Positions 775-59,675 of a stretch of DNA of 64,000 nt are shown in pieces (positions within the stretch are counted from its first letter, which is position 1; every line of letters starts with the position of its first letter). Source of the stretch: the human T2T-CHM13v2.0 reference genome, Homo sapiens; the NCBI GenBank assembly GCA_009914755.4, contig CP086569.2:576001-640000 (forward strand), read 5' to 3'. Position numbers and translations under genes: made by a program. Below the pieces are notes generated by a model. That model did not search any database. It was not told the origin of the DNA and saw nothing but the letters and a program-made list of their open reading frames with translations.

Positions 775-3700
775 CACCCAAGTTCTGAACAACTGACCAC
801 CTGCAGGACCCTCCCCACCTGAGATCTGAACACCTCACCAACTGCAGTGACCGTCCCCACCTGAGATCTGACCACCTCACCACCTGCAGTGACCCTCCCC
901 CACCTGAGATCTGACCACCTGACCACCTGCAGAGACCCTCCCCACCTGAGATCTAAACAACTGACCACCTGCAGTGACCCTCCCCACCTGAGATCTAAAC
1001 ACCTGACCACCTGCAGGGACCCTCCCCACCTGAGATCTGAACACCTGACCACCTGCAGAGACCCTCCCCACCTGAGATCTAAACAACTGACCACCTGCAG
1101 GGACCCTCCCCACCTGAGATCTGAACACCTGACCACCTGCAGTGACCCTCCCCACCTGAGATCTGAACACCTGACCACCTGCAGGGACCCTCCCCACCTG
1201 AGATCTGAACACCTGACCACCTGCAGTGACCCTCCCCACCTGAGATCTAAACACCTGACCACCTGCAGGGACCCTCCCCACCTGAGATCTAAACACCTGA
1301 CCACCTGCAGGGACCCTCCCCACCTGAGATCTGAACACCTGACCACCTGCAGGGACCCTCCCCACCTGAGATCTGAACACCTGACCACCTGCAGTGACCC
1401 TCCCCACCTGAGATCTAAACACCTGACCACCTGAAGGGACCCTCCCCACCTGAGATCTAAACACCTGACCACCTGCAGGGACCCTCCCCACCTGAGATCT
1501 AAACACCTGACCACCTGCAGTGACCCTCCCCACCTGAGATCTAAACAACTGACCACCTGCAGAGACCCTCCCCACCTGAGATCTAAACACCTGACCACCT
1601 GCAGGGACCCTCCCCCACCTGAGATCTAAACACCTGACCACCTGCAGAGACCCTCCCCACCTGAGATCTAAACAACTGACCACCTGCAGGGACCCTCCCC
1701 ACCTGAGATCTGAACACCTGACCACCTGCAGTGACCCTCCCCACCTGAGATCTAAACAACTGACCACCTGCAGGGACCCTCCCCACCTGAGATCTAAACA
1801 CCTGACCACCTGCAGGTACCCTCCCCCACCTGAGATCTGAACACCTGACCACCTGCAGGGACCCTCCCCACCTGAGATCTAAACACCTGACCACCTGCAG
1901 TGACCCTCCCCACCTGAGATCTAAACACCTGACCACCTGCAGGGACCCTCCCCACCTGAGATCTGAACACCTGACCACCTGCAGGGACCCTCCCCACCTG
2001 AGATCTGAACACCTGACCACCTGCAGTGACCCTCCCCACCTGAGATCTAAACACCTGACCACCTGCAGGGACCCTCCCCACCTGAGATCTAAACACCTGA
2101 CCACCTGCAGGGACCCTCCCCACCTGAGATCTAAACACCTGACCACCTGCAGGGACCCTCCCCACCTGAGATCTAAACACCTGACCACCTGCAGGGACCC
2201 TCCCCACCTGAGATCTAAACAGCTGACCACCTGCAGTGACCCTCCCCACCTGAGATCTAAACAACTGACCACCTGCAGAGACCCTCCCCCACCTGAGATC
2301 TAAACACCTGACCACCTGCAGGTACCCTCCCCCACCTGAGATCTGAACACCTGACCACCTGCAGAGACCCTCCCCACCTGAGATCTAAACACCTGACCAC
2401 CTGCAGAGACCCTCCCCCACCTGAGATCTGAACACCTGACCACCAGCAGTGACCCTCCCCACCTGAGATCTAAACACCTGACCACCTGCAGAGACCCTCC
2501 CCCACCTGAGATCTAAACAACTGACCACCTGCAGGGACCCTCCCCCACCTGAGATCTGAACACCTGACCACCTGCAGGGACCCTCCCCACCTGAGATCTA
2601 AACACCTGACCACCTGCAGAGACCCTCCCCCACCTGAGATCTAAACAACTGACCACCTGCAGGGACCCTGCCCCACCTGAGATCTGAACACCTGACCACC
2701 TGCAGAGACCCTCCCCACCTGAGATCTGAACACCTGACCACCTGCAGGGACCCTCCCCACCTGAGATCTGACCACCTGACCACCTGCAGAGACCCTCCCC
2801 ACCTGAGATCTAAACAACTGACCACCTGCAGGGACCCTCCCCACCTGAGATCTGAACACCTGACCACCTGCAGTGACCCTCCCCACCTGAGATCTAAACA
2901 CCTGACCACCTGCAGTGACCCTCCCCACCTGAGATCTAAACACCTGACCACCTGCAGTGACCCTCCCCACCTGAGATCTGAACACCTGACCACCTGCAGT
3001 GACCCTCCCCACCTGAGATCTGAACACCTGACCACCTGCAGGGACCCTCCCCACCTGAGATCTGAACACCTGACCACCTGCAGTGACCCTCCCCACCTGA
3101 GATCTAAACACCTGACCACCTGCAGGGACCCTCCCCACCTGAGATCTGAACACCTGACCACCTGCAGTGACCCTCCCCACCTGAGATCTGAACACCTGAC
3201 CACCTGCAGGGACCCTCCCCACCTGAGATCTGACCACCTGACCACCTGCAGGGACCCTCCCCACCTGAGATCTAAACACCTGACCACCTGCAGGGACCCT
3301 CCCCACCTGAGATCTAAACACCTGACCACCTGCAGAGACCCTCCCCACCTGAGATCTAAACACCTGACCACCTGCAGAGACCCTCCCCACCTGAGATCTA
3401 AACACCTGACCACCTGCAGAGACCCTCCCCACCCAAGATCTGACCACCTGACCACCTGCAGTGACCCTCCCCACCTGAGATCTAAACACCTGACCACCTG
3501 CAGAGACCCTCCCCACCTGAGATCTAAACACCTGACCACCTGCAGAGACCCTCCCCACCCAAGATCTGACCACCTGACCACCTGCAGTGACCCTCCCCAC
3601 CTGAGATCTAAACACCTGACCACCTGCAGAGACCCTCCCCACCCAAGATCTGACCACCTGACCACCTGCAGTGACCCTCCCCACCTGAGATCTAAACAAC

Positions 3701-4885
3701 TGACCACCTGCAGGGACCCTCCCCCACCTGAGATCTAAACACCTGACCACCTGCAGAGACCCTCCCCACCTGAGATCTAAACAACTGACCACCTGCAGGG
3801 ACCCTCCCCCACCTGAGATCTAAACACCTGACCACCTGCAGAGACCCTCCCCCACCTGAGATCTAAACACCTGACCACCTGCAGGGACCCTCCCCACCTG
3901 AGATCTAAACACCTGACCACCTGCAGGGACCCTCCCCACCTGAGATCTAAACACCTGACCACCTGCAGAGACCCTCCCCACCCGAGATCTAAACACCTGA
4001 CCACCTGCAGGGACCCTCCCCACCTGAGATCTAAACACCTGACCACCTGCAGGGACCCTCCCCACCTGAGATCTAAACACCTGACCACCTGCAGAGACCC
4101 TCCCCCACCTGAGATCTAAACACCTGACCACCTGCAGAGACCCTCCCCCACCTGAGATCTAAACACCTGACCACCTGCAGAGACCCTCCCCCACCTGAGA
4201 TCTAAACACCTGACCACCTGCAGTGACCCTCCCCACCCGAGATCTGACCACCTGACCACCTGCAGAGACCCTCCCCCACCTGAGATCTAAACAACTGACC
4301 ACCTGCAGGGACCCTCCCCCACCTGAGATCTAAACACCTGACCACCTGCAGAGACCCTCCCCCACCTGAGATCTAAACACCTGACCACCTGCAGAGACCC
4401 TCCCCCACCTGAGATCTAAACACCTGACCACCTGCAGTGACCCTCCCCACCCGAGATCTGACCACCTGACCACCTGCAGAGACCCTCCCCACCTGAGATC
4501 TAAACACCTGACCACCTGCAGAGACCCTCCCCCACCTGAGATCTAAACACCTGACCACCTGCAGGGACCCTCCCCACCTGAGATCTAAACACCTGACCAC
4601 CTGCAGAGACCCTCCCCACCTGAGATCTAAACACCTGACCACCTGCAGGGACCCTCCCCACCTGAGATCTAAACACCTGACCACCTGCAGAGACCCTCCC
4701 CACCTGAGATCTAAACACCTGACCACCTGCAGAGACCCTCCCCACCTGAGATCTAAACACCTGACCACCTGCAGAGACCCTCCCCACCCAAGATCTGACC
4801 ACCTGACCACCTGCAGTGACCCTCCCCACCCGAGATCTGAACACCTCACCACCTACAGGTACCCTCCCCACCTGAGGTCTGAACA
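775..4885. repeat. 42-bp minisatellite (VNTR) of about 98 tandem copies. The unit is ccacctgcagNgaccctccccacctgagatctRaacacctga, with occasional 43-bp variants.
   Basis: A direct tandem period of 42 is visible throughout. Variant positions (cagTgac, cagGgac, cagAgac; tctGaac, tctAaac; cacctga, caactga) are interspersed. Because 42 = 14 codons, long open frames appear on both strands. Confidence 0.95.
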
Positions 4886-5106
4886 CCTGATGGTACATAA
4901 GCAGGGGTTTATATACCATCTTAACAAAGGATGATGAATTCCTGGAGGATTACCTAGGCAAAGGGAAAAAAAATTATGGACTTCCAGGGGTGGTACATTG
5001 TGGGAAGCTACATATCTTTGGGAAAGAAATGGAAGATAAGGGTGATTTCATCAGCTTTGATGCCTTCTCCATGACACGTGTCATCTGAAATAATTAAGAG
5101 CCATGC

Positions 5107-5849
<743 letters not shown>

Positions 5850-5850
<1 letters not shown>

Positions 5851-5965
5851 GATAGATAGATAGAAAGATAGATAGGTAGGTAGGTAGATAGATAGATAGA
5901 TGATAGAAAGATAGAAAGATAGGTAGATAGATAGATAGATAGAAAGATAGACAGATAGATGGAAA
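5850..5965. repeat. (GATA)n / (GAAA) compound microsatellite
   Basis: gatagatagatagaaagatagataggtagg... lies directly next to the LTR 3' end. Confidence 0.9.
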
Positions 5966-6960
5966 GATAGAGAACTATATATATAGTTTTATATATAGAA
6001 TGATACATAGTGTTATATATAGATATTTATATATAAACTATATATAACTACATAGTTTATATATAAAACTGTATAACTATATACAGTTTTACATATATAA
6101 AACTATATATGACTATATATAGTTATATTTATATATACATATATGTAAAACTATATATAAATATATATCTATAACATATAAAACTATGTGTAACATATAT
6201 AGTTACATTTACATATCTATACATATATGTAAAAATATATAGTTATAGTTTTATATATGTAAAACTACATATATAGTTTTATGTAAAACTATATATAAAA
6301 CTACACTATAAAACTATATATAAGACTATATAAAACTATATATAACTACATAGTAATATACATATAATGTTAAAACTATAACTGTATATAAACTACATAA
6401 TATATAATATATATTTAAATATATATAGTTATATATAACTATATATAACTATATATAGTGTTAAATATAAATATATAACTATATATAGTGTTAAAACTAT
6501 ATATAATATATAATATATATTAAATATATATATTTATATATAACTATATATAAACTATATATAATATATAATATATATTAAATATATATATTTATATATA
6601 ACTATATATAAACATATATAATATATAATATATATTTAAATATATATTTATATATAACTATATATAAACTATATATAATATATAATATATATTTAAATAT
6701 ATATATTTATATATAACTATATATAAACTATATATAATATATAATATATATTTAAATATATATTTATATATAACTATATATAGTGATATATATAATATAT
6801 GTATAGTTATATATATAACTATGTATAGTGATATATATAATATATGTATAGTTATATATATAACTATATATAGTGATATATAATATATGTATAGTTATAT
6901 ATATAACTATATATAACTGCAGAATGTATATATACAGAATAGATATATACGTCTAATAGT
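5965..6960. repeat. AT-rich tandem repeat built on TATATA/AACTATATATA, with a clear higher-order period of about 61-62 bp between roughly 6500 and 6800
   Basis: Repeated blocks of the form tatatataactatatataaactatatataatatataatatatatttaaatatatatatttat. Confidence 0.85.
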
Positions 6961-7299
6961 GTATATATATATATAAATAAGAGTTCTGTCTCTCATAGTA
7001 TATATATTTATGTCTCTCCTTTAGTTCTCTTCTCTAGAGAACCGTGACTAATACACCTGTACAAAAGGAAATGTATGTTCTGCCATTGTGCATTTGGGAG
7101 GGCGACCTCCAAGGCCTCCATCCCTTCCCTGGAGCTGATGGAGATGCGCTGCCCTTGGCTATTGCTATGAGGGGTACTGGGCTGGGGCAGGGATCCCCAT
7201 GGGGACACCACACCTTTCCTTTTGAGTTCCCCAAGGTTGCAGTGTTTCTGATGACTGAGCATTGAGGACAGTGGGGACACCACCTGGAAGGCAGGGCCT

Positions 7300-7724: not shown

Positions 7725-9600
7725 CGCCCTGGTGAGTGTCAGGTACAGATAGAGGATGAAAACCTTCAACACACAGGGAACGTGGGCTCCCAGCAGAGCT
7801 GACCACAGACAGGCCCAGGCCCTGCTAACACCCCAGTCACAGGTCCAGTGCAGACAGTGGACGCCGGTATTCAATGCACAGGGGACGTGTCTCCCTGCAA
7901 ACCTCACCACAGATGGGCCCAGGCCCTGCTAACGCCCCGGTCACAGGTCAGGTGTAGACAGTGGATACTGGTATTCAATGCACAGGGGACATGTGCTCCC
8001 TGCAGAACTGACTCCAGACAGGCCCAGGCCCTGCTAATGCCCCGGTCACAGGTCAGGTGCAGACAGTGGACACTGGTATTTAATGCAGGGGGGATGTGGG
8101 CTCCCAGCAGAACTGACCCCAGACAGGCCCAGGCCCTGCTAACGCTCCGGTCACAGGTCAGGTGCAGACAGTGGACGCTGGTATTCAATGCACAGGGGAT
8201 GTGGGCTCCCAGCAGAGCTCACCACAGACAGGCCCAGGCCCTGCTAACGCCCCGGTCACAGGTCAGGTGCAGACAGTAGACGCCGGTATTCAATGCACAG
8301 GGGACGTGACTCCATGCAAACCTCACCACAGACGGGCCCAGGCCCTGCTAACGCCCCGGTCACAGGTCAGGTGTAGACAGTGGATACTGGTATTCAATGC
8401 ACAGGGGACATGTGCTCCCTGCAGAACTGACTCCAGACAGGCCCAGGCCCTGCTAATGCCCCGGTCACAGGTCAGGTGCAGACAGTGGACACTGGTATTT
8501 AATGCAGGGGGGATGTGGGCTCCCAGCAGAACTGACCCCAGACAGGCCCAGGCCCTGCTAACGCTCCGGTCACAGGTCAGGTGCAGACAGTGGACGCTGG
8601 TATTCAATGCACAGGGGACGTGACTCCATGCAAACCTCACCACAGACAGGTCCAGGCCCTGCTAACGCCCCAGTCGCAGGTCAGGTGCAGAGAGTGGACG
8701 CCGGTATTCAATGCACAGGGGACATGACTTCATGCAAACCTCACCACAGACAGGCCCAGGCCCTGCTAACATCCCAGTCACAGGTCAGGTGCAGACAGTG
8801 GACGCTGGTATTCAATGCACAGGGGACGTGACTCCATGCAAACCTCACCACAGACAGGTCCAGGTCCTGCTAACGCCCCGGTCGCAGGTCAGGTGCAGAC
8901 AGTGGACGTCGGTATTCAATGCACAGGGGACGTGTCTTCCTGCAAACCTCACCACAGACAGGTCCAGGCCCTGCTAACGCCCCGGTCGCAGGTCAGGTGC
9001 AGAGAGTGGACGCCGGTATTCAATGCACAGGGGACGTGACTCCATGCAAACCTCACCACAGACAGGTCCAGGCCCTGCTAACATCCCACTCACAGGTCAG
9101 GTGCATTCAGTGGACGCCGGTATTCAATGCACAGGGGACGATGGCTCCCAGCAGAGCTCACCACAGACAAGCCCAGGTCCTGCTAACGCCCAGGTCAGAC
9201 TGGGTCAGGTACAGATGGGACCAGGCCCTGCTAACACCCTGGTGAGTATCAGGTGCACACAGAAGATGGGAACAGGGGATGTGGGCTCCCTGCAGAACTG
9301 ACCACAGACAGTCCTGGTCCTTGCTAACACCCAGGCCAGTTTAGCTGAGGTATAGACGGCAGACGGCGGCATTTAATGCACAGGGAATGCGGGTTCCCTG
9401 CAAAACTCACCACAGACATGTCCAGGCACTGCTAACATCCTGGGCACAGGTCAGGTACACACAGTGGACGTGAACATTCAATACTCATCCCAGATGGGAC
9501 CAGACCCTGCTAACGCCCCAGTCAGAGGTCAGCTGGGCATTTAATACACGTGAGACATGGGGTCCTGCAGAACTCACAACAGACGGGCTGAGCCCCGCCA
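7725..9600. repeat. 104-bp minisatellite of about 18 copies with a 416-bp (4-unit) higher-order repeat. It degenerates after about 9150.
   Basis: ORFs restart every 104 bp (8607, 8711, 8815, 8919, 9023). The block at about 7890-8210 is repeated almost identically at about 8305-8625. The unit is ctgctaacgccccggtcacaggtcaggtgcagacagtggacgccggtattcaatgcacaggggacgtgactccatgcaaacctcaccacagacaggcccaggcc. Confidence 0.9.
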
Positions 9601-9719: not shown

Positions 9720-10368
9720 TACCCTTTTATTCTTTCTCTCTTTCTTTTTCTTTTTCTTTCTTTCTTTCTTTCTTTGTCTTTCTTTCTTCCTTTCTTTCCT
9801 TTCTTTCTTTCCTTTCTTTCCTTCCTTTCTTTCTTTCCTTCTTTCTTTCTTTCTTTGTTTCTTTCTTTGTCTTTCTTCCTTTCTTCCTTTCTTTCCTTTC
9901 TTTCCTTCCTTTTTCTTTCTTTCTTTCTTTGTCTTTCTTTCTTCCTTTCTTCCTTTCTTTCCTTTCTTTCTTTCCTTTCTTTTTCTTTCTTTCTTTCTTT
10001 GTCTTTCTTTCTTCCTTTCTTCCTTTCTTCCTTTCTTTCTTTCCTTTCCTTCCTTTCTTTCTTTCCTTCTTTCTTTCTTTGTCTTTCTTTCTTCCTTTCT
10101 TCCTTTCTTTCCTTTCTTTCCTTCCTTTCTTTCTTTCCTTCTTTGTCTTTCTTTCTTTCTTCCTTTCTTTCTTCCTTCCTTTCTTTCTTTCTTTCTCTTT
10201 CTTTCTTTCTTCTTTCTTTCTTTCATCTTTCCTTTCCCTTCCTTCCTTCCTTTCTTTCTTTCTTTGTTTCTTTCTTTGTCTTTCTTTCTTTCTTCCTTTC
10301 TTCCTTTCTTTCCTTTCTTTCCTTTCTTTCCTTCCTTTCTTTCCTTCTTTCTTTGTCTTTCTTCCTTC

Positions 10369-10412
<44 letters not shown>

Positions 10413-10518
10413 TTTCTTTCTTTCCTTCTTTCTGTCTCTTTCTTTCTTTCTTTCTTTCAGCTTTCCCTCCCTTCCTTCCTTCCTTCCTTCCTTCCTTCCT
10501 TCCTTCCTTCCTTCCTTC

Positions 10519-10577
<59 letters not shown>

Positions 10578-10590
10578 TTTCTTTCTTTCA
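9720..10590. repeat. (TTTC)n / (TTCC)n / (CTTTC)n polypyrimidine microsatellite of about 870 bp
   Basis: Uninterrupted ctttctttcttcctttc... continues into the poly-T, that is the reversed A-tail, of the adjacent minus-strand Alu. Confidence 0.95.
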
Positions 10591-16214: not shown

Positions 16215-18570
16215 GAGTATCAGGGGATTGTGGCGTTCGGTGTGTATCAGTGTGTAGTGGCATTGATGGTATATCCGTGCGTTGAGGCATTTAGAGTGTA
16301 TTGAGTGTGTACAAGTGTATCATGGTATTGATTGCATATAAGTGCATTGTGGGATTGAGTGTGTATCAGTTCATTATGAGATTGAGTGTGTATCAGTGCA
16401 TTGTGGGATTGAGTGTGTATCAGTGCATTGTGGGATTGAGTGCATTGTGGGATTAAGTGCGTATGAGTGCATTGTGGGATTGACTATATATCAGTGCATT
16501 GTGGGATTGAGTGTGTATCAGCGCATTATGGGATTGAGTGTGTATCAGTGCATTGTGGCATTGAGTGCATATGAGTGCATTGTGGGATTGAGTGTGTATG
16601 AGTGCATTGTGGGATTGAGTGTGTATCAGTGCATTGTGGGATTGCATGTGTATCAGTGCATTCTGGGATTGAGGGCATATGAGTGCATTGTGGGATGGTG
16701 TATCAGTGCATTGTGGGATTGAGTGTGTATCAGTGCATTGTGGGATTGAGTGCATTGTGGGATTGAGTGCGTATGAGTGCATTGTGGGATTGACTATATA
16801 TCAGTGCATTGTGGGATTGAGTGTGTATCAGTGCATTATGGGATTGAGTGCATATGAGTGCATTGTGGGATTGAGTGTGTATCAGTGCATTGTGCGATTG
16901 AGTGCGTATCAGTGCATTGTGGCATTGAGTGCATATGAGTGCATTGTGGGATTGAGTGTCTATCAGTGCATTATGTGATTGAGTATATATCAGTGCATTG
17001 TGGGATTGAGTGTCTTTCAGTGCATTGTGGGATTGAGTGCATGTGAGTGCATTGTGGGATTGAGTGTGTATTAGTGCATTGTGGGATTGAGTGCATATGA
17101 GTGCATTGTGGGATTGAGTGTCTATCAGTGCATTATGTGATTGAGTATATATCAGTGCATTGTGGGATTGAGTGTCTTTCAGTGCATTGTGGGATTGAGT
17201 GCATGTGAGTGCATTGTGGGATTGAGTGTGTATTAGTGCATTGTGGGATTGAGTGCATATGAGTGCATTGTGGGATTGAGTGTGTTTGAGTGCATTGTGG
17301 GATTGAGTGTGTATCAGTGCATTATGGGATTGAGTGCATATGAGTGCATTGTGGGATTGAGTGTGTATCAGTGCATTATGTGATTGAGTGCGTATCAGTG
17401 CATTGTGGCATTGAGTGCATATGAGTGCATTGTGGGATTGAGTGTCTGTCAGTGCATTATGTGATTGAGTATATATCAGTGCATTGTGGGATTGAGTGTC
17501 TTTCAGTGCATTGTGGGATTGAGTGCATATGAGTGCATTGTGGGATTGTGTATCAGTGCATTGTGGGATTGAGTGCATATCAGTGCATTGTGGCATTCAG
17601 CGTGTATCAGCGCATTGTGGCACTTAGTGTATATTGAGTGTGTACAAGTGCCTTGTGGCATTGAGTGCATATGAATGCCTAGAAGCATTAAGTGCATATC
17701 AGTGCCTTGTGGCATTTAATGTATATCAGTGCATTGTGGCATTTAATATATATTGGTGCATTGTAGCATTGAGTGCATTGTGGCATTGAGTGTGTATTGA
17801 GTGTGTACAAATGCATTGTGGCATTGAGTGCATATGAGAGCATCATGGAATTCAGTGCACATTAGTAAATCATAGCATTTAATCTATGTCACTGAATTGT
17901 GGCATTGAGTGCATACAAGTACATTGTGGCATTGAGTGTGTATCAGAGAATCATGGCATTTGATGTATATCAGGGCATTGTGGCATTGAGCGCCTATGAG
18001 TGCATTGCAGCGTTGACTGCCTATCAGTGCATGGTGGCATTCAGCACGTATCAGTGCATCGTAATGTTGAGTGCGTATCAGTGCATTGTGGCATTGAGTG
18101 TGTATCAGTGCATTGTGGCATTCAGCATGTATCAGTGCATCATAATATTGAGTGCATATCAGTGCATTGTGGCACTTAGTGTGTATTGAGTGTGTACAAG
18201 TGCACGGTGGCATTGAGTGCGTATCAGTGCATTGTGGAATTCAGTGCATATCAGTGAATTGTGGCATTTAATCTATATCAGTGAATTGTGGCATTGAGTG
18301 CATATGAGTGCATTGTGGCATAGAGTGTGTATCAGTGCATTGTGACATTCAGCATGTATCAGTGCATTGAAACGTTGAGTGCATATCAGTGCATTGTGGC
18401 ATTGAGGGTGTATCAGTGCATTGTGGCATTGAGTGCATATGAGTGCACTGTGGAATTCAGTGCATATCAGTGAATTGTAGCATTTAATGTATATCAATGC
18501 ATTGTGGCATTGTGTGCATTGTGGCATTGAGAGTGTATCAGTGCCTCTCGGTATTGCGTGTGTATTCGTG
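16215..18570. repeat. 27-bp minisatellite of about 87 copies, unit cagtgcattgtgggattgagtgtgtat, with two subfamilies and higher-order structure
   Basis: The period of 27 is 9 codons, which produces the HNALIHTQS and CIVGLSVYQ repeat ORFs. The gtgggattgag variant runs from about 16340 to 17590. The gtggcattgag variant runs from about 17590 to 18560. Blocks of about 162 bp and about 330 bp recur, for example 16385/16715 and 16955/17110/17440. Confidence 0.95.
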
Positions 18571-20507: not shown

Positions 20508-20619
20508 AAAAAAGAATGCTGCACCCGGAAGAAGCACATTGCAGCCATCCCTGACAATTGCTTGGATGCTACAATGGTGAATTTTATAAGTCAGTCTGAT
20601 CAGGTCTTGCAATGAACAC

Positions 20620-23560
20620 GTTAAACATGATTTCTGGATGTATCTGTGAGGATGTTTCTAGAGGAGACTAGCATTTGAGTTCATGGGCTCACGAAAAGAA
20701 ACATCATCCGCTTTAAAACTGGTAAGGATAGGCCTTCTGTTGAGGGTGTGCAACAGGATTTGCTCCATTTCTCCTGCAACACTACTTGAGCTGGGACATC
20801 TCATTCCATCATCTGTCTTCAGACTGGCTCTTACAGCCTCGGTTCTTCTGGGTCTCAGGCCTTCAGCTAAGTTAGGGTCTTCACGCTATCAACTCTACTG
20901 CATTTCAGACCTTCAAACTCAGACTAGAACTCCCACCCTCAGCTCTCCTGGGTCTCTGGACTTCAGACTCACACTGGAACTCACACCCTCAGCTCTCCTG
21001 GGTCTCAGGACTTCACACTCAGACTAGAACCCACACCCTCAGCTCTCCTGGGTCTCTGGACTTCAGACTCACACTGGAACTCACACCCTCAGTTCTCCTA
21101 GGTCTCAGACCTTCAGACTCAGACTAGAACTCACACCCTCGGCTCTCCTGGGCCTCAGGCATTCAGACTCAGACTAGAACTCACACTCTCAGCTCTTCCA
21201 GGTCTCGGGCCTTCAGACTCACACGGGAACTCACACCGTCAGTTCTCCTAGGTCTCAGACCTTCACACTCAGACTGGAACTAGGGACCCTTGGCTCTCCT
21301 GGGTCTCAGACCTTCAGACTCAGACTAGAACTCACACCCTCGGCTCTCCTGGGTCTCAGGCCTTCAGACTCAGACTGAAACTCACACCCTTAGCTCTCCT
21401 GGGTCTCAGGACTTCTGACTCACACTGGAACTCACACCCTCAGCTCTCCTAGGTCTCAGATCTTCAGACTCAGACTGGAACTCACACCCTCAGCTCTCCT
21501 GGGTCTCAGGACTTCAGACTCTGTCTGAAACTAGGGACCCTTGGCTCTCCTGGGTCTCAGGACTTCAGACTCAGACTGGAACTCACACCCTCAGCTCTCC
21601 TGGATCTCAGGCCTTCAGACTCAGACCGGAACTCACACCCTCAGCTCTCCTGGGTCTCAGGACTTCTGACTCACACTGGAACTCACACCCTCAGTTCTCC
21701 TAGGTCTCAGACCTTCAGACTCAGACTAGAACTCACACCCTCAGCTCTCCTAGGTCTCAGACCTTCAGACTCAGACTAGAACTCACACCCTCGGCTCTCC
21801 TGGGTCTCAGGCCTTCAGACTCAGACTGAAACTCACACCCTTAGCTCTCCTGGGTCTCAGGACTTCTGACTCACACTGGAACTCACACCCTCAGTTCTCC
21901 TACGTCTCAGACCTTCAGACTCAGACTAGAACTCACACCCTCGGCTCTCCTGGGTCTCAGGCATTCAGACTCAGACTAGAACTCACACTCTCAGCTCTTC
22001 CAGGTCTCGGGCCTTCAGACTCACACGAAAACTCACACCGTCAGTTCTCCTAGGTCTCAGGACTTCACACTCAGACTAGAACTCACACCCTCAGCTCTCC
22101 TGGATCTCAGGACTTCACACTCAGACTGGAACTCACACCCTCAGCTCTCCTGGGTCTCAGGACTTCAGACTCAGTCTGAAACTAGGGACCCTTGGCTTTC
22201 CTGGGTCTCAGGACTTCAGACTCATACTGGAACTCACACCCTCAGCTCTCCTGGGTCTCAGGACTTCTGACTCACACTGGAACTCACACCCTCAGTTCTC
22301 CTACGTCTCAGACCTTCAGACTCAGACTAGAACTCACACCCTCAGCTCTCCTGGGTCTCAGGCCTTCAGACTCAGACTGAAACTCACACCCTCAGCTCTC
22401 CTGGGTCTCAGGACTTCTGACTTACACTGGAACTCACACCCTCAGCTCTCCTGGGTCTCTGGACTTCAGACTCACACTGGAACTCACACCCTCAGCTCTC
22501 CTGGGTCTCAGGACTTCACACTCAGACTAGAACTCACACCCTCAGCTCTCCTGGATCTCAGGACTTCACACTCAGACTGGAACTCACACCCTCAGCTCTC
22601 CTGGGTCTCAGGACTTCAGACTCAGTCTGAAACTAGGGACCCTTGGCTTTCCTGGGTCTCAGGACTTCAGACTCATACTGGAACTCACACCCTCAGCTCT
22701 CCTGGATCTCAGGCCTTCAGACTCAGACCGGAACTCACACCCTCAGCTCTCCTGGGTCTCAGGACTTCTGACTCACACTGGAACTCACACCCTCAGTTCT
22801 CCTAGGTCTCAGACCTTCAGACTCAGACTAGAACTCACACCCTCAGCTCTCCTGGGTCTCTGGACTTCAGACTCACACTGGAACTCACACCCTCAGCTCT
22901 CCTGGGTCTCTGGACTTCAGACTCACACTGGAACTCACACCCTCAGCTCTCCTGGGTCTCAGGACTTCACACTCAGACTAGAACTCACACCCTCAGCTCT
23001 CCTGGATCTCAGGACTTCACACTCAGACTGGAACTCACACCCTCAGCTCTCCTGGGTCTCAGGACTTCAGACTCAGTCTGAAACTAGGGACCCTTGGCTT
23101 TCCTGGGTCTCAGGACTTCAGACTCATACTGGAACTCACACCCTCAGCTCTCCTGGATCTCAGGCCTTCAGACTCAGACCGGAACTCACACCCTCAGTTC
23201 TCCTACGTCTCAGACCTTCAGACTCAGACTAGAACTCACACCCTCAGCTCTCCTGGGTCTCAGGACTTCTGACTCACACTGGAACTCACACCCTCAGTTC
23301 TCCTAGGTCTCAGACCTTCAGACTCAGACTAGAACTCACACCCTCAGCTCTCCTAAGTCTCAGACCTTCAGACTCAGACTAGAACTCACACCCTCGTCTC
23401 TCCTGGGTCTCAGGACTTCACACTCAGACTGGAACTCACAACCTCCGCTCTCCTGGGTCTCAGGCCTTCAGACTCAGACTGGAACTAGGGACCCTTGGCT
23501 CTCCTGGATCTCTGTCTTTCTAGCAGTAGATTAAGGAACTTCTCAGCTTCCATATTTAAC
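20620..23560 (+). mobile_element. ERVL-MaLR MST-type solo LTR whose internal tandem-repeat region has expanded massively
   Basis: The 5' part gtttctagaggagactagcatttgagttcatgg...gagctgggacatctcattcc... and the 3' end ...cttctcagcttccatatttaactgacctattttctcataataaatctagc match the MST LTR as I remember it. MST LTRs have a short internal motif of about 50 bp, ggctctcctggttctcaggccttcggactcggactggaactacaccatc. Confidence 0.6.
20860..23500. repeat. 50-bp minisatellite of about 53 copies with a 9-unit higher-order repeat of about 451 bp. It is derived from the MST LTR internal repeat.
   Basis: The unit is agctctcctgggtctcaggacttcagactcagactggaactcacaccctc. The marker unit ctgaaactagggacccttggct recurs at about 21525, 22170, 22625, 23075 and 23480. 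Identical ORFs sit at 22192 and 23094, which are 902 bp apart. Confidence 0.9.
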
Positions 23561-23569
23561 TGACCTATT

Positions 23570-23603
23570 TTCTCATAATAAATCTAGCATCTATCTATCT
23601 ATC

Positions 23604-23638
<35 letters not shown>

Positions 23639-23800
23639 ATCATCTATTATATTATATTATCTACCTATCTGTTTATTATCTGTTTATCATTTGTTATTAT
23701 CCCTACTATCATCTGAAAATCATGTTTTTATCATATATCTATTTATTATTCATCTACTTATCCCCTGTCTCTGTAGCTTCTACATAGCTATCTATCATTT
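23570..23800. repeat. (TATC)n compound microsatellite decaying into AT-rich sequence
   Basis: atctatctatctatcatctatctatctatc... lies directly next to the LTR 3' end. Confidence 0.9.
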
Positions 23801-25739: not shown

Positions 25740-25832
25740 GATAGGATAGATAGACAGACAGACAGATAGAAAAATCAATAGATAGATATCTAGATAGATA
25801 GATGACGGATAGATAGGCAGGCAGAGATAGAT

Positions 25833-25883
<51 letters not shown>

Positions 25884-25924
25884 GATAGATAATAGACACA
25901 TAGATGATAGACAGATAGATAGAT

Positions 25925-25959
<35 letters not shown>

Positions 25960-35479: not shown

Positions 35480-36770
35480 GATATAAACAGGGTCAGGTCA
35501 ACCTGTACAGGACTATGAACTTAATACACTTTACCTTAATAGACTGCTTCCTTGCTGTGATGAGTTCATGAAGTAGAAAGGGTGTCACCAGCCCACAGCC
35601 TGCACAGGACCAGGACTTCAATGCACTTGACCTCTCATTCCCTGAGTGAGGAACCCATGAAATGAGGGGGAGTCTCACCAGCTCAGAACCTGCACAGGAC
35701 TAGGACCTCAACACACTTGACCGTTCTTTCCCTGTGTGAGGAATATATGAAGTGAGGAGGAATCTCACCAGCCCAGAGCCTGCACAGGATGAGGACCTCA
35801 ATACACTTGTCCACTCTTTCCCTGTGTGAGGAATATATGAAGTGACAAGTGTGTCTCCAGCCCAGAGCCTACACATGACTAGGACCTCAATACACTTGAC
35901 TTCTCCCTCCTCATGTGAGGAATAGATGAAGTGACGAGGGTCTCATCAGCCCACAACCTCCACAGGACCAGGACCTCAATACACTTGACTTCTCCTTCCC
36001 CATGTGAGGAATAGATGAAGTCACGAGGGTGTCACCAGCCCACAGTCTGCACAGGATGAGGACCTCAATACACTTTAACACTCTTTCCCTGTGTGAGGAA
36101 TATATGAAGTCACGAGGGTGTCATCAGCCCAGAGCCTGCACATGACTAGGACTTCAATACACTTGACTTCTCCTTCCCCATCTGGGGAATAGATGAAGTC
36201 ATGAGGGTGTCACCACTCCAGAGCCTGCCCAGGACCAGGACCTCAATACACTTGACCACTCTTTCCCTGTGTGAAGAATACATGAAGTGAGGAGGGTGTC
36301 ACCACCCCAGAGCCTGCCCAGGACCAGGACCTCAATACACTTGACCACTCTTTCCCTGTGTGAGGAATACATGAAGTGATGAGGGTGTCACCAGCACAGA
36401 ACCTACACATGACTAGGACCTCGATACACTTGACTTCTCCCTCCTCATGTGAGGAATAGATGAAGACACGAGGGTGTCACCAGCCCAGAGCCTGCACAGG
36501 ACCAGGACCTCAATACACTTGGCCCCTCCTTCCCTGTGTGAGGAAGATATGAAGTGAGAGGTTCTCATTAGCCCAGAGCCTGCACCAGACAAGGACCTCA
36601 ATATGCTTGGCCTCTCCTTCCTCATGTGAGGAATATATGAAATGAGAAAGGTCTCACCAGCCCAGAGCCTCCACAGGATCAGGACCTCAATACACTTGAC
36701 CTGTCCTTCCCTGTGTGAGGAATAGATGAAGTGAAAATGGTCTCATCAGCCCAGAGCCTGCATTTTCATT
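35480..36770. repeat. 89-bp minisatellite of about 14 copies
   Basis: The unit is ...cagcccagagcctgcacaggaccaggacctcaatacacttgaccactctttccctgtgtgaggaatacatgaagtgaggagggtgtcac... The ccagccc landmarks sit at 35768, 35857, 35946, 36035 and 36124, all 89 bp apart. A solitary diverged unit lies at about 37265-37360. Confidence 0.9.
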
Positions 36771-40254: not shown

Positions 40255-40840
40255 CTCTCCAGCTCATATGTGGCTCTTTCTCTCTCTTCTTCTTCTTCTT
40301 CTTCTCCTCCTTCTCCTTCTCCTCCTCCTCCTCCTCTTCCTCCTTTTCCTCCTTTTCCTCCTTCTCCTTGTCCTTCCCTCCTCCTCCTTCTCCTCCTTCT
40401 CCTCCTCCTCCTCTTCTTTCTCCTCCTCTTCCTTCTCCTCCTCCTTCTCCTCGTCCTTCTCCTTCTCCTCCTCCTTCTCCTTCTCCTCGTCCTTCCCTCC
40501 TCCTCCTCCTCTTCTTTCTCCTCCTCTTCCTTCTCCTCATCCTTCTCCTCCTCCTCCTTCTCCTCCTCCTCATCCTTCTCCTCCTCCTTCTCATCCTTCT
40601 CCTCCTCCTCCTCGTCCTTCTCCTTCTCCTCCTTCTCCTCCTCCTCCTTCTCCTCCTCCTCATCCTTCTCCTCCTCCTTCTCATCCTTCTCCTCCTCCTC
40701 CTTGTCCTTCTCCTTCTCCTCCTTCTCCTCCTCCTCCTACTCCTCCTCCTCCTTCTCCCCGTACTTCTCCTTCTCCTCCTCCTCCTTCTCCTCCTCCTTT
40801 TCCTTCTCCTTCTTCTTGTTTTTTTGTTCTTCTTCCTCTC
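40255..40840. repeat. (CCT)n / (CTCCTT)n pyrimidine trinucleotide-type repeat of about 590 bp
   Basis: ctcctcctccttctcctcctcctcctc... explains the poly-R/E ORFs (39968..40888 minus strand) and the poly-L/S/P ORFs. Confidence 0.95.
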
Positions 40841-40889
40841 TCCACCCCACCCCTCATCCTTCCACAGTCTGGGGAGCTTAAACAACAAA

Positions 40890-41990
40890 TATTTATATTC
40901 TCTGTTCTGGAGATCAGAAGTTTGAGATGAAGGTGTCTCAGGATTGCACTTCCTCTGCAGGCTTTAGGGGAGGATGCTTCCTGCCACTCCCAGCTCCTGG
41001 GGGGTCCAGGCGTCCCTGGGCTTGTGGCCTCATCACTCCAGTCTCTGCCTCCATCTCCATGTGACCTTCTCCTCTGTGTCTGTGTCTCCTCTTCTGTCTC
41101 TTAGAAGGACACCTGTCATTGCATTTAGGGCCCAGCCTAATCCAGGATAACCTCATCTCAAACTCCTTCAGTTCATTGTATCTGCAAAGACCCTATTTTC
41201 AAATAAGTTCTCGTTCACAGATACTGGGAGCTTAAAACTACAGAAATTTATTCTCTCTCTGTCCTGGAGACCATGACTCTGAGATGAAGATATCTCAGGG
41301 CCGTGCTCCCTCCACAGTCTCTAGGGGAGGGTCCTTCCTGCCTCTCCCAGCTCCTGGGTGCTCCAGGCATCCCTGGCTTGTGGCCGCCTCACTCCAGTCT
41401 CTGCCTCCGTCTCCACGTGGCCTTCTCCTCTGTGTCTGTGTCTCCTCTTCTGTCTCTTAGAAGGACATTTACCATTGCATTTAGGGCCCATCCTAATCCA
41501 GGATTATCTCATCTCCAGATCCTTAATTACATCTACAAATAACCTTTTTCCAAATGAGGTCCCATTCCCAGGTTCCTGGGCTTAGGACATGGACATATCT
41601 TTTGGACGTCACCACCCAACCCATTGCAGTTGTGTTTTGTTCTTCCTGGAGGCTCTAGGGGAGGGTCCTTCCTGCCTCTCCCAGCTCCTGGGGGCTCCAG
41701 GCATCCCTGGGCTTGAGGCCCCATCACTCCAGTCTCTGCCTCTGTCTCCACGTGGCCTTCTCCTCTGTGTCTGTGTCTCCTCTTCTGTCTCTTAGAAGGA
41801 CACCTGTCATTGCATTTAGGATCCACCCTAATCCAGAATGATGTCATTCTAACTTAACTGCATTGGTAAAGACTGTCTTTCCAAATAAGACGACGTTGCC
41901 TAGTTGTAGGGCTTTGGAGTTCAACATTTTTTTTTTTTTGGAGAGCCCCCTATTCAACCTGTAACATTAAATATTATATATTATTCCCCT
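40890..41990 (+). repeat. Three tandem copies, period about 375 bp, of an interspersed MaLR/MLT-like element
   Basis: Copies lie at about 40890-41265, 41265-41640 and 41640-41990. Each holds ...ctctaggggagggtccttcctgcctctcccagctcctggg.gctccaggcatccctggcttgtggcc.cctcactccagtctctgcctccgtctccacgtggccttctcctctgtgtctgtgtctcctcttctgtctcttagaaggaca...cattgcatttagggcccatcctaatccagg... The last copy ends ...ggagttcaacattttttt...ttcaacctgtaacatt. Confidence 0.75.
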
Positions 41991-43217: not shown

Positions 43218-44328
<1,111 letters not shown>

Positions 44329-47029: not shown

Positions 47030-48300
47030 TTCCTGGTGTGTGTGCCATCTCATGCGTGCATAAGAACATACATGAATGCACACACACACGTACACACAGT
47101 GTGGTTACACATGCGTGCCTGGGAGGTGGCATATTCAGGTTTTGTCTTTGCTAGATTGTTACTCCAGCCATGCACAAGCTTTCACATGTGTGCAGTCATG
47201 CAAACATGCACACACATGCACACACACACATGCACACACAGTGTGGATACACATGCATGCCTGGGAGAAGGCATACGCAGATTTCTTCTTTGCTAGCTTC
47301 TTGCTGTGGCCATGCACAAACTCTCACATGTGTGCACTCATACAAACATGCACATACATGCATGCACACACAGTGTGCATACACATGCATGCCTGGGAGG
47401 AGGCATATGCAGATTTATTCTTTGCTAGCTTCTTGCAGTGGCCATGCACAAACTCTCACGTGTGTGTGCACTCATGCACACATGCACACTCACACACATA
47501 TGCACACATGTGCATGCAAAGTGTGATTACACATGCAGTCTTAGGAAGAGGCATATACAGATTTCTTGTCTGCTAGATTCTTGCTCCAGGCATGCACAAG
47601 CTCTCACAAGTGTGCAGTCATGCAAACATACACACACACACATGCACACACAGTGTGCATACACATGCATGCCTGAGAGGAGGCATATGCAGATTTTTCT
47701 TTGCTAGATTCTTGCTGTGGCCATGCACAAGCTCTCACGTGTGTGTGCACTCATGCACACATGCGCACACACACACATCCACACACGTGCATGCACGCAC
47801 AGTGTGGTTACATATGTGTGCCTGGGAGGTGGCATATGCAGATTTTGTCTTTGCTAGATTGTTACTCCAGCCATGCACAAGCTTTCACATGTGTGCAGTC
47901 ATGCAAACATGCATATACATGCATGCACACACATGCACACACAGTGTGGATACACATGCGTGCCTGGGAGAAGGCATATGCAGATTTATTCTTTGCTAGC
48001 TTCTTGCTGTGGCCATGCAGAAGCACTCATGTCTATGTGCACACATGTACACGCACACACATCCACACATGTGCACGCACACACAGTGTGGTTAAACTTT
48101 TATGCCTGGGAGTTGGCACAGGCTAATTTTCTCTTTGCTAGATTCTTGCTCTGGCCACGCACAAGCTCTCACGTGTCTGTGCAGTCATGCAAACACACAC
48201 ACACGCAGTGCACAAGCTCTCACATGTGTGTGCAGCCATGCAAACACACACACACACATGCAGTGTCTATATGCACGACTGGCTGGGAAGAAATCCAGGT
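47030..48300. repeat. CA/TG-rich tandem repeat of about 141 bp, about 9 copies, with a 5-unit higher-order repeat of about 705 bp
   Basis: The ccatgcacaag anchors sit at 47166, 47308, 47440, 47585, 47718, 47868, 48016 and 48155. The block at 47098-47210 is repeated almost exactly at 47805-47917. Confidence 0.9.
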
Positions 48301-49949: not shown

Positions 49950-50228
49950 TCTCCCTGTCATCTACTTGTCATACATCTACCTATCTCATTTATCTATCAT
50001 CAATCATCTACATATCTGTCTTATCTATCTATTCATCTTATCTATGTATCTATTACCATCATGTATCTATATATCTATCTACCTAAGTATGTATCTGTTA
50101 CCATCATCTATTTATCTATCTATCTATCTACCTATCTATGTATCTATTACCATCATCTATCTATCTATCTATCTATCTTCTATCTACCTTCTATCTACCT
50201 ATGTATGTATCTATTACCATCATCTATC

Positions 50229-50262
<34 letters not shown>

Positions 50263-50358
50263 TACCATCATCTATCTATCTATCTATCTATCTTCTATCT
50301 ATCTTCTATCTACCTTCTATCTACCTATGTATGTATCTATTACCATCATCTATCTATC

Positions 50359-50404
<46 letters not shown>

Positions 50405-50497
50405 TACCATCATCTATCTATTTGTCTATCTATCTATCTACCTACCTATCATCTTCTATCTACCTAAGTATGTATCTATTACCATCATCTGTCTATC

Positions 50498-50540
<43 letters not shown>

Positions 50541-50604
50541 ATCTATCTACCTAAGTATCTATTACCATCACCTATCTTCTATCTATCTATGTATCTCTCT
50601 ATCT

Positions 50605-50641
<37 letters not shown>

Positions 50642-50720
50642 AAGTATCACCATCATCTATGTATCTCTCATCTATTTTATCTATACATCTATCTATCATC
50701 TATCATCCATCTATATGTCT
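49950..50720. repeat. Compound (TATC)n array with recurring taccatcatc and tacctaagtatgtatctattaccatcatc inserts
   Basis: ctatctatctatctatc... It is the reverse-complement orientation of the array at 58250-60870. Confidence 0.95.
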
Positions 50721-57729: not shown

Positions 57730-58249
57730 TCATCCCTGAGTAGTGGTTTCAGTTCCCTGCCAACCTATGGAATTGTCCAGAAAAGCCCATCACCTTCTTC
57801 TGCAGGAACCAGGAGCCACCTCACCCACTTGTTCCTACAAAGCCTGCCTTTCATGGCTTCTGATGGTTCATTGTACTAGAATGCAACTTCACATGCATGC
57901 TGTAAAGGGTCCTCTTCCCCCATCTGTGCATAGACGTGAGCAATCAATGTGGTTGTAGCTGTCATGCCTCCAGTGCTACATGCCATGGTCAGCCATCCCT
58001 AGCATCCTAGCACAAGAAACCCTTTCTTACCAAAGCAATGGATAGGAGGCTGTCCATCCATTGCTTCCCAAAACCACCTGCTCCTTGTAGTAAATTGTGA
58101 GGATAAACAGGGCAGTGTTCCATTTTGGACTGCCTCTATATATTTAAATTATCTTTGACTTGGGACCCACAAGATTATGGAAGAAGAACATGGGAAGCTT
58201 CCAGGAAACCTGGATGTATTAGTCAGGGTTCTCTAGAGAGACAGAACTG

Positions 58250-58265
58250 ATAAGACGGATGGATG

Positions 58266-58312
<47 letters not shown>

Positions 58313-58453
58313 GGATAGATAGATAGATAGATAGGTAATGGTAGTAGATACATACTTAGGTAGATAGAGGATGATAGATAGATAGATAGATAGACAGAGA
58401 GATGATGGTAATAGATACACACTTAGGTATATAGAAGATAGATAGATAGATAA

Positions 58454-58507
<54 letters not shown>

Positions 58508-58597
58508 GATAGACAGATGATGGTAATAGATACTTAGGTAGATAGAGGATGATAGATAGATAGATGATGGTAATAGATACATAGGTAGATAGAAGAC

Positions 58598-58644
<47 letters not shown>

Positions 58645-58761
58645 TCATAGATACATAGATACATAGATAGATGATGGTAATAATACATACTTAGGTAGAT
58701 AGAAGATAGATAGATGATAGATAGATGATGGTAATAGATACATACTTAGGTAGATAGAGGG

Positions 58762-58802
<41 letters not shown>

Positions 58803-59324
58803 CATAGATAGATAGATAGATAGATGATGGTAATAGACACATACTTAGGTAGATAGAATATCATAGATAGATAGATAATGGTAGTAGATACATACTTAGG
58901 TAGATAGAATATCATAGATAGATAGATAGATAATGGTAGTAGATACATACTTAGGTAGATAGAGGATGAGAGATAGATAGATAGATAGATAGATAGACAG
59001 ATAACGGTAATAGATACATACTTAGGTAGATAGAGGATGAGAGATGGATAGATAGACAGATAATCGTAATAGGTACATACTTAGGTAGATAGAGGATGAG
59101 AGATAGATAGACAGATAGATAGACCGATAGATAATGGTAATAGATACATACTTAGGTAGATAGAGGATGAGAGATAGATAGATAGATAGATAGATAGACC
59201 GATAGATAATGGTAATAGATACATACTTAGGTAGATAGAAGATGATAGATAGATAGACAGACAGACAGATAATGGTAATAGATACATACTTAGGTAGATA
59301 GAGGATGAGAGATAGATAGATAGG

Positions 59325-59361
<37 letters not shown>

Positions 59362-59396
59362 GATGGTAATAGATACATAGGTAGATAGAGGATGAG

Positions 59397-59438
<42 letters not shown>

Positions 59439-59629: not shown

Positions 59630-59675
<46 letters not shown>

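What the first reader, a model, noticed from the sequence alone, without database searches (positions are those of the whole stretch)
20620..23560. An MST (ERVL-MaLR) LTR whose internal motif of about 50 bp has ballooned into a 2.6-kb VNTR with a 451-bp higher-order repeat
The 5' portion (tagcatttgagttcatgg...gagctgggacatc...) and the 3' terminus (...cttctcagcttccatatttaactgacctattttctcataataaatc) fit the MST LTR as I remember it. An MST LTR contains only a short internal tandem repeat of the ggctctcctggttctcaggccttcggactcggactggaactacaccatc type. Here that internal repeat has about 53 copies, organised as 9-unit HORs of about 451 bp. The marker unit ctgaaactagggacccttggct sits at 21525, 22170, 22625, 23075 and 23480. 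Identical ORFs lie at 22192 and 23094. This looks like a LTR-derived minisatellite expansion. It sits upstream of the LTR's own polyadenylation signal (ataataaa) and the adjacent (TATC)n, so any residual LTR promoter or polyA activity would be length-modulated.
Basis: partly seen in the sequence, partly recalled or inferred. Interest (0 to 1): 0.65.

Follow-up and report, generated by a model that had tools for sequence, protein, structure and literature searches.

The report
Old retroviral LTR with expanded minisatellite
A 50-bp motif inside an ancient retrovirus-like LTR in human non-coding DNA has been copied about 54 times into a 2.7-kb minisatellite; this is a well-known way for such repeats to arise, and the surrounding region is full of them, so it is ordinary.

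Summary
TRF finds a 50-bp repeat of 53.8 copies at 20819-23512, with a 451-bp period of 5.8 copies superimposed. The 451-bp order is regular only in the 3' half. There, two complete 9-unit blocks are 95.3% identical and share a 323-bp exact repeat. The 5' half is a patchwork of shorter multi-unit duplications.

The array interrupts one solitary LTR-like dispersed repeat. A profile built only from two other copies in this window hits the left flank from LTR position 5 (E=1.7e-7). The right flank carries AATAAA and a (TATC)n tract.

The class call (ERVL-MaLR) is reasonable. The subfamily label MST could not be tested, and from my memory the flanks look like MLT1.

The amplified unit is CpG-depleted (observed/expected 0.115), so the expansion came long after insertion. 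The 323-bp exact repeat means turnover is recent.

One third of the window is tandem repeat, as in human subtelomeres. No coding, RNA-family or DNA-hairpin signal was found.

LTR-internal minisatellites have been described since 1989. Copy-number variation between people and the state in other apes could not be tested with these tools. Interest is low.

The parts
20571..20818 (+). 5' part of a solitary ERVL-MaLR-type LTR (U3 side), starting about TACAATGGTGAATTTTA and running through CTTGAGCTGGGACATC
   Evidence: A profile built from in-window copies C2 and C3 hits 20574-20696 at model positions 5-120, E=1.7e-7. BLAST to C2 gives 49 bp at 75.5%. Alignment to a remembered MaLR consensus gives z=30 (a lead only).
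20819..23512 (+). 50-bp minisatellite, 53.8 copies, 30 distinct unit sequences among 53 units
   Evidence: TRF; unit decomposition and unit-type string.
20819..20937 (+). Diverged edge units (one partial unit plus units A and B). These are probably the LTR's own original repeats and were never homogenised.
   Evidence: Units A and B differ from the array consensus at 18 and 11 of 50 positions. Interior units differ at 2-9 positions.
22191..22641 (+). First complete 451-bp higher-order copy (units X P R Y Z C a V W)
   Evidence: 95.3% identical to the next copy, with no gaps; unit string.
22642..23092 (+). Second complete 451-bp higher-order copy (units X O P E C C a V W)
   Evidence: A 323-bp exact repeat at lag 451 links 22424-22746 to 22875-23197.
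21274..21295 (+). Marker junction (51-bp unit type), copy 1 of 6. The others are at 21525, 22176, 22627, 23078 and 23479.
   Evidence: 6 matches against 0.00 expected. The last copy is the native junction into the LTR 3' segment. GGCTTTC is shared with copy C3 at about 43806-43812.
23513..23588 (+). LTR 3' segment after the array, reading ...GGAACTTCTCAGCTTCCATA...CATAATAAATC, with AATAAA at 23577-23582
   Evidence: Sequence. Aligns to the remembered consensus at 43 of 58 positions, z=10.5. Not detected by the C2+C3 profile.
23589..23681 (+). (ATCT)n/(TATC)n microsatellite 6 bp after AATAAA, followed by a degenerate TATC-rich tract
   Evidence: TRF. Tetranucleotide arrays sit at the same LTR position in copy C2 (5849-5971) and in front of the orphan LTR end at 58255-58215.
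23682..23786 (+). Degenerate TATC-rich tract with a possible LTR terminus (CCCTGTCTCTGTAGCTTCTACATA). The boundary is uncertain.
   Evidence: Alignment to the LTR ends of C2 and C4 does not exceed the shuffle controls, so this is inconclusive. An antisense Alu follows from about 23822.

Best explanation
This is a solitary, ancient ERVL-MaLR-type LTR in human non-coding DNA. From memory it is most likely of the MLT1 group.

Such LTRs carry two to three native tandem copies of a roughly 50-bp motif in U3, upstream of the TATA/AATAAA region. Long after insertion, when the motif's CpG sites had already decayed to CpA, out-of-register pairing between these copies enlarged the array. The pairing could have occurred through unequal sister-chromatid or interhomologue exchange, or through replication-based duplication. 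Growth was mostly in multi-unit steps.

The latest steps duplicated 9-unit (451-bp) blocks at the 3' side and produced the higher-order pattern. The region itself is prone to such events, as one third of the window is tandem repeat.

The array is most likely a neutral, copy-number-variable VNTR with no coding or RNA product.

Shown: the array, its block structure, the LTR homology of the left flank, the CpG depletion, and the VNTR-rich context. Inferred: the exchange mechanism, the timing, the polymorphism and the neutrality.
For: Array and 451-bp period.

Unit map ABCDCEFGH|IJKLM|NOPEQJKRSTUVW|XPRYZCaVW|XOPECCaVW|XORPEbcd.

Multi-unit rather than single-unit growth:
- Adjacent units differ as much as random pairs (5.85 against 5.78 of 50 positions).
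- Exact repeats of 323, 202 and 177 bp lie at lags of 451, 902 and 1102 bp.
- Rows 3 and 4 are 95.3% identical with no gaps, while other row pairs are 84-93% identical.

LTR identity: the C2+C3 profile hits the left flank from model position 5. The remembered consensus aligns colinearly to both flanks. Edge units are the most diverged.

Late amplification: CpG observed/expected is 0.115. The unit position-4 site is G, so the dinucleotide there is still CpG, in only 5 units (1, 7, 11, 20, 23), all in the 5' half; it is also G after T (TG, not CpG) in the six marker-following units 10, 15, 28, 37, 46 and in unit 52 (G followed by T).

Regional propensity: 21.4 of 64 kb is tandem repeat. Other LTRs in the window also carry internal expansions.

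Human origin: an identical ORF was found in human-sample contigs.

Precedent in the literature: MaLR-derived minisatellites (PMC6947457); an 8.7-kb minisatellite flanked by MLT1D (PMC4411736); 23% of human minisatellites are TE-derived (PMC3389668); VNTRs are enriched in subtelomeres (PMC7608644); duplications and deletions are the main force in VNTR allele change (PMC8327921).
Against: The right flank is not detectably homologous to the two in-window LTR copies. Its LTR assignment rests on a consensus recalled from memory.

The LTR 3' terminus and any target-site duplication could not be located.

No other haplotype or species could be obtained, so polymorphism and timing are inferences.

No functional data of any kind are available, so neutrality is assumed rather than shown.
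Confidence: 0.85

Rival explanations
1. The host element is an MST LTR: the younger MaLR lineage ancestral to THE1, rather than MLT1.
For: Both readers independently recall the same internal motif and the same flank sequences, and both families belong to ERVL-MaLR (classification table in PMC5753468). No repeat library was available to exclude MST.
Against: Motifs I remember as typical of THE1/MST-type LTRs are absent from the flanks at up to 2 mismatches. These are GTGTCCCCCCAAA, CCACCATGTGAGGACAC, TTTAAGCCACCCAGTCT and CCAGAACTGTGAGA. The flanks are heavily diverged: about 61% identity to the remembered consensus on the left (157 of 257) and 74% on the right. They are also strongly CpG-decayed. 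This fits a pan-mammalian MLT1 age better than MST. All of this rests on memory for the family labels.
Confidence: 0.2
2. The array is a functional regulatory VNTR, in which repeated transcription-factor sites act as a copy-number-dependent enhancer or silencer for a nearby gene.
For: There are six perfect AP-1 sites (TGACTCA) in 2.7 kb, against 11 in the other 61 kb. The array sits in the U3 part of an LTR, where enhancer repeats normally lie. VNTR-rich subtelomeric genes are known to be affected by VNTR length (PMC7608644).
Against: The AP-1 sites come from two closely related unit variants (K and P, one base apart) that were copied with their blocks, so the enrichment carries no independent weight. 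CpG depletion argues against an unmethylated regulatory island. No expression, chromatin or conservation data are available. No Rfam family, Pfam domain or DNA structure signal was found.
Confidence: 0.07
3. The array is an independent minisatellite that lies next to LTR-like sequence by chance, or it is an assembly artefact.
For: The region generates many VNTRs that have no visible transposable-element origin. The right flank is not matched by the in-window LTR profile.
Against: The repeat unit is colinear with the internal motif of the LTR family. The remembered consensus positions 269-356 match 20918-21006 at 80%. The native junction GGCTTTC(C)TGG is also present in copy C3. The array edges grade into diverged units that continue the LTR on both sides. 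The 30 distinct unit variants, arranged in an ordered pattern, are not what a collapsed or inflated assembly would give. A 100-bp piece identical to units L-M was recovered from an independent sample.
Confidence: 0.03

Closest known systems
Human minisatellite MS32 (D1S8) and mouse Ms6-hm / Hm-2, which arose inside MaLR-type LTRs (Armour et al. 1989; Kelly 1994; cited in PMC6947457)
   Same: A short motif internal to a MaLR LTR was amplified in place into a minisatellite, and both LTR halves remain as flanks.
   Different: Those loci have shorter units: 29 bp for MS32 and 5 bp for Ms6-hm, from my knowledge. They are documented as hypervariable. Here the unit is 50 bp, a 451-bp higher-order period is present, and variability is untested.
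The 8.7-kb 33-bp minisatellite at 16q24.1, flanked by MLT1D ERVL-MaLR sequence (PMC4411736)
   Same: A kilobase-scale minisatellite embedded in an MLT1-type LTR in a distal, VNTR-rich chromosome region. That paper shows it to be polymorphic and evolutionarily unstable.
   Different: The unit sequence and length differ, and no sequence relationship was found. That array is three times larger and has been linked to replication-error rearrangements.
LTR12 and L1PA internal tandem repeats, and TE-derived minisatellites in general (PMC3389668)
   Same: A tandem repeat already present in the element's consensus acts as the seed, and copy number varies between loci.
   Different: In LTR12 the variation was partly spread by transposition of already repeated copies. 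Here the amplified unit is CpG-decayed, so growth happened in place, long after insertion.
Higher-order repeats of alpha satellite (from general knowledge)
   Same: Multi-unit blocks are more alike than adjacent units. Blocks are 95.3% identical, whereas adjacent units are about 88% identical.
   Different: There are only two complete blocks and no centromeric context. The 5' half is a patchwork rather than a regular higher-order repeat.

Membership tests
ERVL-MaLR LTR (superfamily) | Homology to other dispersed LTR copies, starting at the LTR 5' end | tested here: met
   An nhmmer profile of in-window copies C2 and C3 hits 20574-20696 at model positions 5-120, E=1.7e-7.
ERVL-MaLR LTR (superfamily) | The 3' part carries a TATA/AATAAA region and is homologous to the LTR 3' part | tested here: inconclusive
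   AATAAA is present at 23577-23582. The C2+C3 profile gives no hit. The match to the remembered consensus is 43 of 58 positions, z=10.5, but that consensus is not from a database.
ERVL-MaLR LTR (superfamily) | TG...CA termini and a 5-bp target-site duplication | tested here: inconclusive
   The 5' end reads TACAATGG, where the other copies read TGTGATGG or TGGGATGG. The 3' terminus could not be located above the shuffle controls, so the target-site duplication cannot be read.
ERVL-MaLR LTR (superfamily) | Classification by RepeatMasker/Dfam | not testable with these tools
   No repeat library is available. Literature searches for the sequence strings returned nothing.
   Four motifs that I remember as typical of THE1/MST are absent from the flanks. 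The test rests on memory, not on the curated consensus.
MLT1 subfamily group | Similarity to an MLT1 consensus | tested here: inconclusive
   The flanks align colinearly to a consensus I recall as MLT1-type. The same remembered sequence also hits independent copies in the window at 5510-5637, 7005-7055, 43223-43381 and 58255-58215. It therefore represents a real family, but the name comes from memory.
Minisatellite / VNTR | Head-to-tail array of 10-100-bp units | tested here: met
   50 bp x 53.8 copies, with no indels apart from the 51-bp marker units.
Minisatellite / VNTR | Copy number varies between individuals | not testable with these tools
   Only contigs under 1 kb from human samples were reachable, and none spans the array.
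Higher-order repeat | Multi-unit blocks are more similar to each other than neighbouring units are | tested here: met
   Rows 3 and 4 are 95.3% identical, against about 88% for adjacent units. A 323-bp exact repeat lies at lag 451. This is regular only from about 22140 to 23492.

The most novel reading that the evidence does not exclude
The array could be a recent, possibly human-lineage expansion whose copy number tunes a neighbouring subtelomeric gene. The mechanism would be the number of AP-1-bearing units in an old LTR U3 region, making an ancient MaLR enhancer-repeat seed into a length-variable regulatory element.
Probability: 0.05. Interest if true: 0.5.

Novelty: new member of a known kind. 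Interest (0 to 1): 0.15.

Why it matters
It matters little beyond annotation. It is a clean example of how a short native repeat in an old LTR seeds a kilobase-scale VNTR, and of growth in multi-unit steps. The locus is probably a length-polymorphic marker and a source of mapping trouble for short reads. It would matter more only if array length proved to be human-specific or associated with expression of a neighbouring gene. The wider point is regional: several LTRs in this window have each ballooned at an internal repeat site, which shows that the chromosomal neighbourhood, as much as the seed sequence, decides which seeds expand.

Tried and rejected
External copies:
- Exact look-ups of ORFs at the array edge, inside the array and downstream found nothing.
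- A flanking ORF was found only on human-sample contigs under 1 kb.
- A protein homology search with the 114-aa edge ORF found nothing.
- The metagenome scan gave one chimeric bacterial contig carrying 100 bp of units L-M.
- Two scans of prokaryotic genome contigs found nothing.

Literature:
- Searches for sequence strings of the LTR and of the repeat unit gave 0 papers.
- Mermer 1987, Smit 1993 and Armour 1989 are not held.

Function:
- Rfam at gathering threshold gave 0 hits in the whole window.
- Pfam on ten non-repeat ORFs gave 0 hits.
- DNA folding of units gave z-scores from 0.4 to -1.9, not significant.
- The PRDM9 13-mer motif occurs 0 times in the array.

LTR 3' end: alignment to the ends of C2 and C4 was not above the shuffle controls.

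Rejected readings:
- Coding potential of the 'identical ORFs'. They are not identical, are short and start at TTG.
- A tandem array of whole LTRs. The period is 50 bp, not the length of an LTR.

Full report
**What is there**

The window is human. It is full of Alu elements. A 145-aa ORF 1.2 kb upstream of the finding recurs, residue for residue, on contigs from human gut and 'human metagenome' samples.

Tandem Repeats Finder reports a 50-bp repeat of 53.8 copies at 20819-23512, with 85% matches and no indels. It also reports a 451-bp period of 5.8 copies at 90% matches.

I cut the array into 53 units in one register. Forty-seven are 50 bp long, five are 51 bp, and the last (unit d, 23443-23492) is a marker-type unit cut to 50 bp by the array boundary. 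The 51-bp units and unit d carry the marker CTGRAACTAGGGACCCTTGGCT. The marker occurs six times where none is expected by chance, at 21274, 21525, 22176, 22627, 23078 and 23479.

**Internal order**

With one letter per distinct unit sequence, the array reads:

ABCDCEFGH | IJKLM | NOPEQJKRSTUVW | XPRYZCaVW | XOPECCaVW | XORPEbcd

There are 30 distinct sequences among the 53 units. The blocks bounded by markers therefore hold 5, 13, 9, 9 and 8 units, after a first stretch of 9. Every consecutive run of nine units contains exactly one 51-bp unit. This is why the 451-bp period extends over the whole array.

True higher-order regularity is confined to the 3' half:
- The two complete blocks, 22191-22641 and 22642-23092, are 95.3% identical without gaps. 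Other row pairs are 84-93% identical.
- The longest exact repeats are 323 bp at lag 451, 202 bp at lag 902 and 177 bp at lag 1102.
- Adjacent units differ as much as random pairs of units (5.85 against 5.78 differences per 50 bp).

Growth was therefore by duplication of multi-unit segments, not by slippage of single units. The 5' half has 18 distinct sequences among 22 units, and the 3' half has 13 among 24. The latest turnover is on the 3' side.

At a neutral rate of about 0.5e-9 substitutions per site per year, a 323-bp pair is expected to acquire its first difference after roughly 3 million years (a one-in-two chance by about 2 million years). This is my inference, not a measurement. The last duplication, or a conversion event, is therefore recent.

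They are by-products of the repeat.

**What the flanks are**

No repeat library is available, so I looked for relatives inside the window. Two further LTR-like copies in the same orientation turned up:
- C2 at 5455-5848.
- C3 at 43223-43512 and 43757-43900, interrupted by an Alu. It is 76% identical to C2.

A profile built only from these two copies hits the left flank of the array. Model positions 5-120 align to 20574-20696 with E=1.7e-7. The left flank is therefore the 5' end of a dispersed LTR family, starting at about 20571.

The same profile does not detect the right flank. The right flank does carry ...GGAACTTCTCAGCTTCCATA...CATAATAAATC, with AATAAA at 23577-23582.

A MaLR consensus that I recall from memory aligns colinearly to both flanks. 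On the left it matches 157 of 257 positions (z=30 against shuffles). On the right it matches 43 of 58 positions (z=10.5). Its internal two-copy motif aligns to the first array units at about 80%.

The same remembered sequence also hits C2, C3 and two isolated LTR ends in the window. It therefore represents a real family. Its name, however, is only a recollection.

The array's edge units are the most diverged, at 18 and 11 differences from the array consensus. The last unit, which is of the marker type, runs directly into the LTR 3' segment. The marker is therefore probably the LTR's native last repeat junction. Copy C3 shows the same GGCTTTC..TGG junction.

I could not locate the LTR 3' terminus beyond the (TATC)n tract, so no target-site duplication can be read.

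**MST or MLT1**

Both families are ERVL-MaLR (PMC5753468). From memory, MST LTRs resemble THE1. Four motifs of that type are absent from the flanks. They are partly present in a different, antisense LTR at 40872-41940.

The strong divergence and CpG decay also suit the pan-mammalian MLT1 group better. I put about 0.7 on MLT1 and about 0.2 on MST. This was not tested against a curated consensus.

**Timing and mechanism**

The array has 20 CpGs where 175 are expected, an observed/expected ratio of 0.115. Position 4 of the unit still forms a CpG in only 5 units (1, 7, 11, 20, 23), all in the 5' half. It is also G, but after T or before T and so not a CpG, in units 10, 15, 28, 37, 46 and 52. The remembered consensus has CpG at the other two sites as well, and the array has CpA there almost everywhere.

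The units that were amplified were therefore already decayed. The expansion came long after insertion, and the 3' half derives from decayed units.

The most likely mechanism is out-of-register exchange or replication-based duplication between the LTR's native repeats and then between larger blocks. This is the process proposed for VNTR allele change in long-read studies (PMC8327921).

There is no sign of hairpin-driven slippage; the unit fold z-scores run from 0.4 to -1.9. The array contains no PRDM9 13-mer.

**Context**

One third of the window, 21.4 of 64 kb, is tandem repeat. This includes seven other large arrays with unit lengths of 4 to 142 bp. Such density is typical of the last megabases of human chromosome arms, where VNTRs are strongly enriched (PMC7608644).

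Other LTRs in the window have also ballooned at internal sites:
- C2 carries about 1.1 kb of (GATA)n and (TA)n between its AATAAA and its terminal ...GTGACTAATACA.
- An orphan LTR end on the minus strand follows a 2.6-kb (TATC)n tract.
- An antisense LTR is partly triplicated with a 356-bp period.

The neighbourhood, as much as the seed sequence, explains the expansion.

**Function**

Nothing points to a function:
- No Rfam family was found in the window.
- No Pfam domain was found in ten non-repeat ORFs.
- No homologue of the edge ORF was found.

Six perfect AP-1 sites lie in the array. They belong to two closely related unit variants (K and P, one base apart) copied with their blocks, so they carry no independent weight.

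It has no support here.

**Comparison with what is known**

Minisatellites that arose inside MaLR LTRs have been known since 1989-1994: human MS32 and mouse Ms6-hm and Hm-2 (cited in PMC6947457). An 8.7-kb minisatellite at 16q24.1 is flanked by MLT1D and is polymorphic (PMC4411736). About 23% of human minisatellites derive from transposable elements (PMC3389668).

This locus is a further member of that kind. I found no paper containing its sequence. It will almost certainly already appear in the TRF and RepeatMasker tracks of the human reference.

**What could not be done**

No second haplotype or other species could be obtained.

**Verdict**

The subfamily name is probably wrong, and the regularity of the higher-order repeat is overstated. 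The feature is ordinary and of low interest.

Noticed in passing
window 1-64000: One third of the window (21.4 kb) is tandem repeat: 42 bp x97 (784-4890), 104/314 bp (7765-9197), (TTCT)n (9730-10589), 27/54/81 bp x80 (16300-18519), 89 bp x13 (35579-36762), (CTCCTC)n (40289-40816), 142/280 bp (47079-48262), and several tetranucleotide arrays. The landscape looks subtelomeric. No coding domain or Rfam family was found.
   Followed up: partly
window 5455-7055 (+): A second LTR of the same kind (C2). Its body at 5455-5848 ends in CTTAATAAACTCTCC. It is followed by (GATA)n and (TA)n through 6915, and then by the LTR terminus ...AGAGAACCGTGACTAATACA at 7023-7055. A different internal site, just after AATAAA, has expanded to about 1.1 kb.
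   Followed up: partly
window 58215-60863 (- strand): A 2.6-kb (TATC)n tract, read on the minus strand, runs directly into an orphan LTR 3' end, AGTTCTGTCTCTCTAGAGAACCCTGACTAATACA (58255 to 58215). No LTR body is visible on the other side of the array (60864-61960). Either the body was lost or the array replaced it.
   Followed up: partly
window 23589-23681, 5849-5971, 58258-60863: Tetranucleotide arrays sit at the same position, after AATAAA and before the LTR terminus, in three LTR copies. The motif is TATC in two copies and the complementary GATA in one copy of the same orientation. It is unclear whether the LTR's TA-rich site seeds them or the region simply favours GATA repeats. Two further arrays at 25740-25959 and 49975-50714 have no LTR next to them.
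   Followed up: no
window 40872-41940 (- strand): An antisense MaLR-like LTR of a different type (THE1/MST-like, from memory) is partly triplicated with a 356-bp period (2.8 copies, 79% matches). It lies directly after a 0.5-kb (CTCCTC)n tract.
   Followed up: partly
window 43223-43900 (+): A third LTR copy (C3), 76% identical to C2, split by an Alu fragment at about 43550-43750 and followed by another Alu directly after its AATAAA region. It shows no internal expansion.
   Followed up: partly
L006 1-100: A 1042-bp bacterial-looking metagenome contig (OGYJ01036083.1) ends in about 100 bp identical to array units L-M (window about 21439-21503). This is a chimeric join of human and bacterial reads.
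   Followed up: yes
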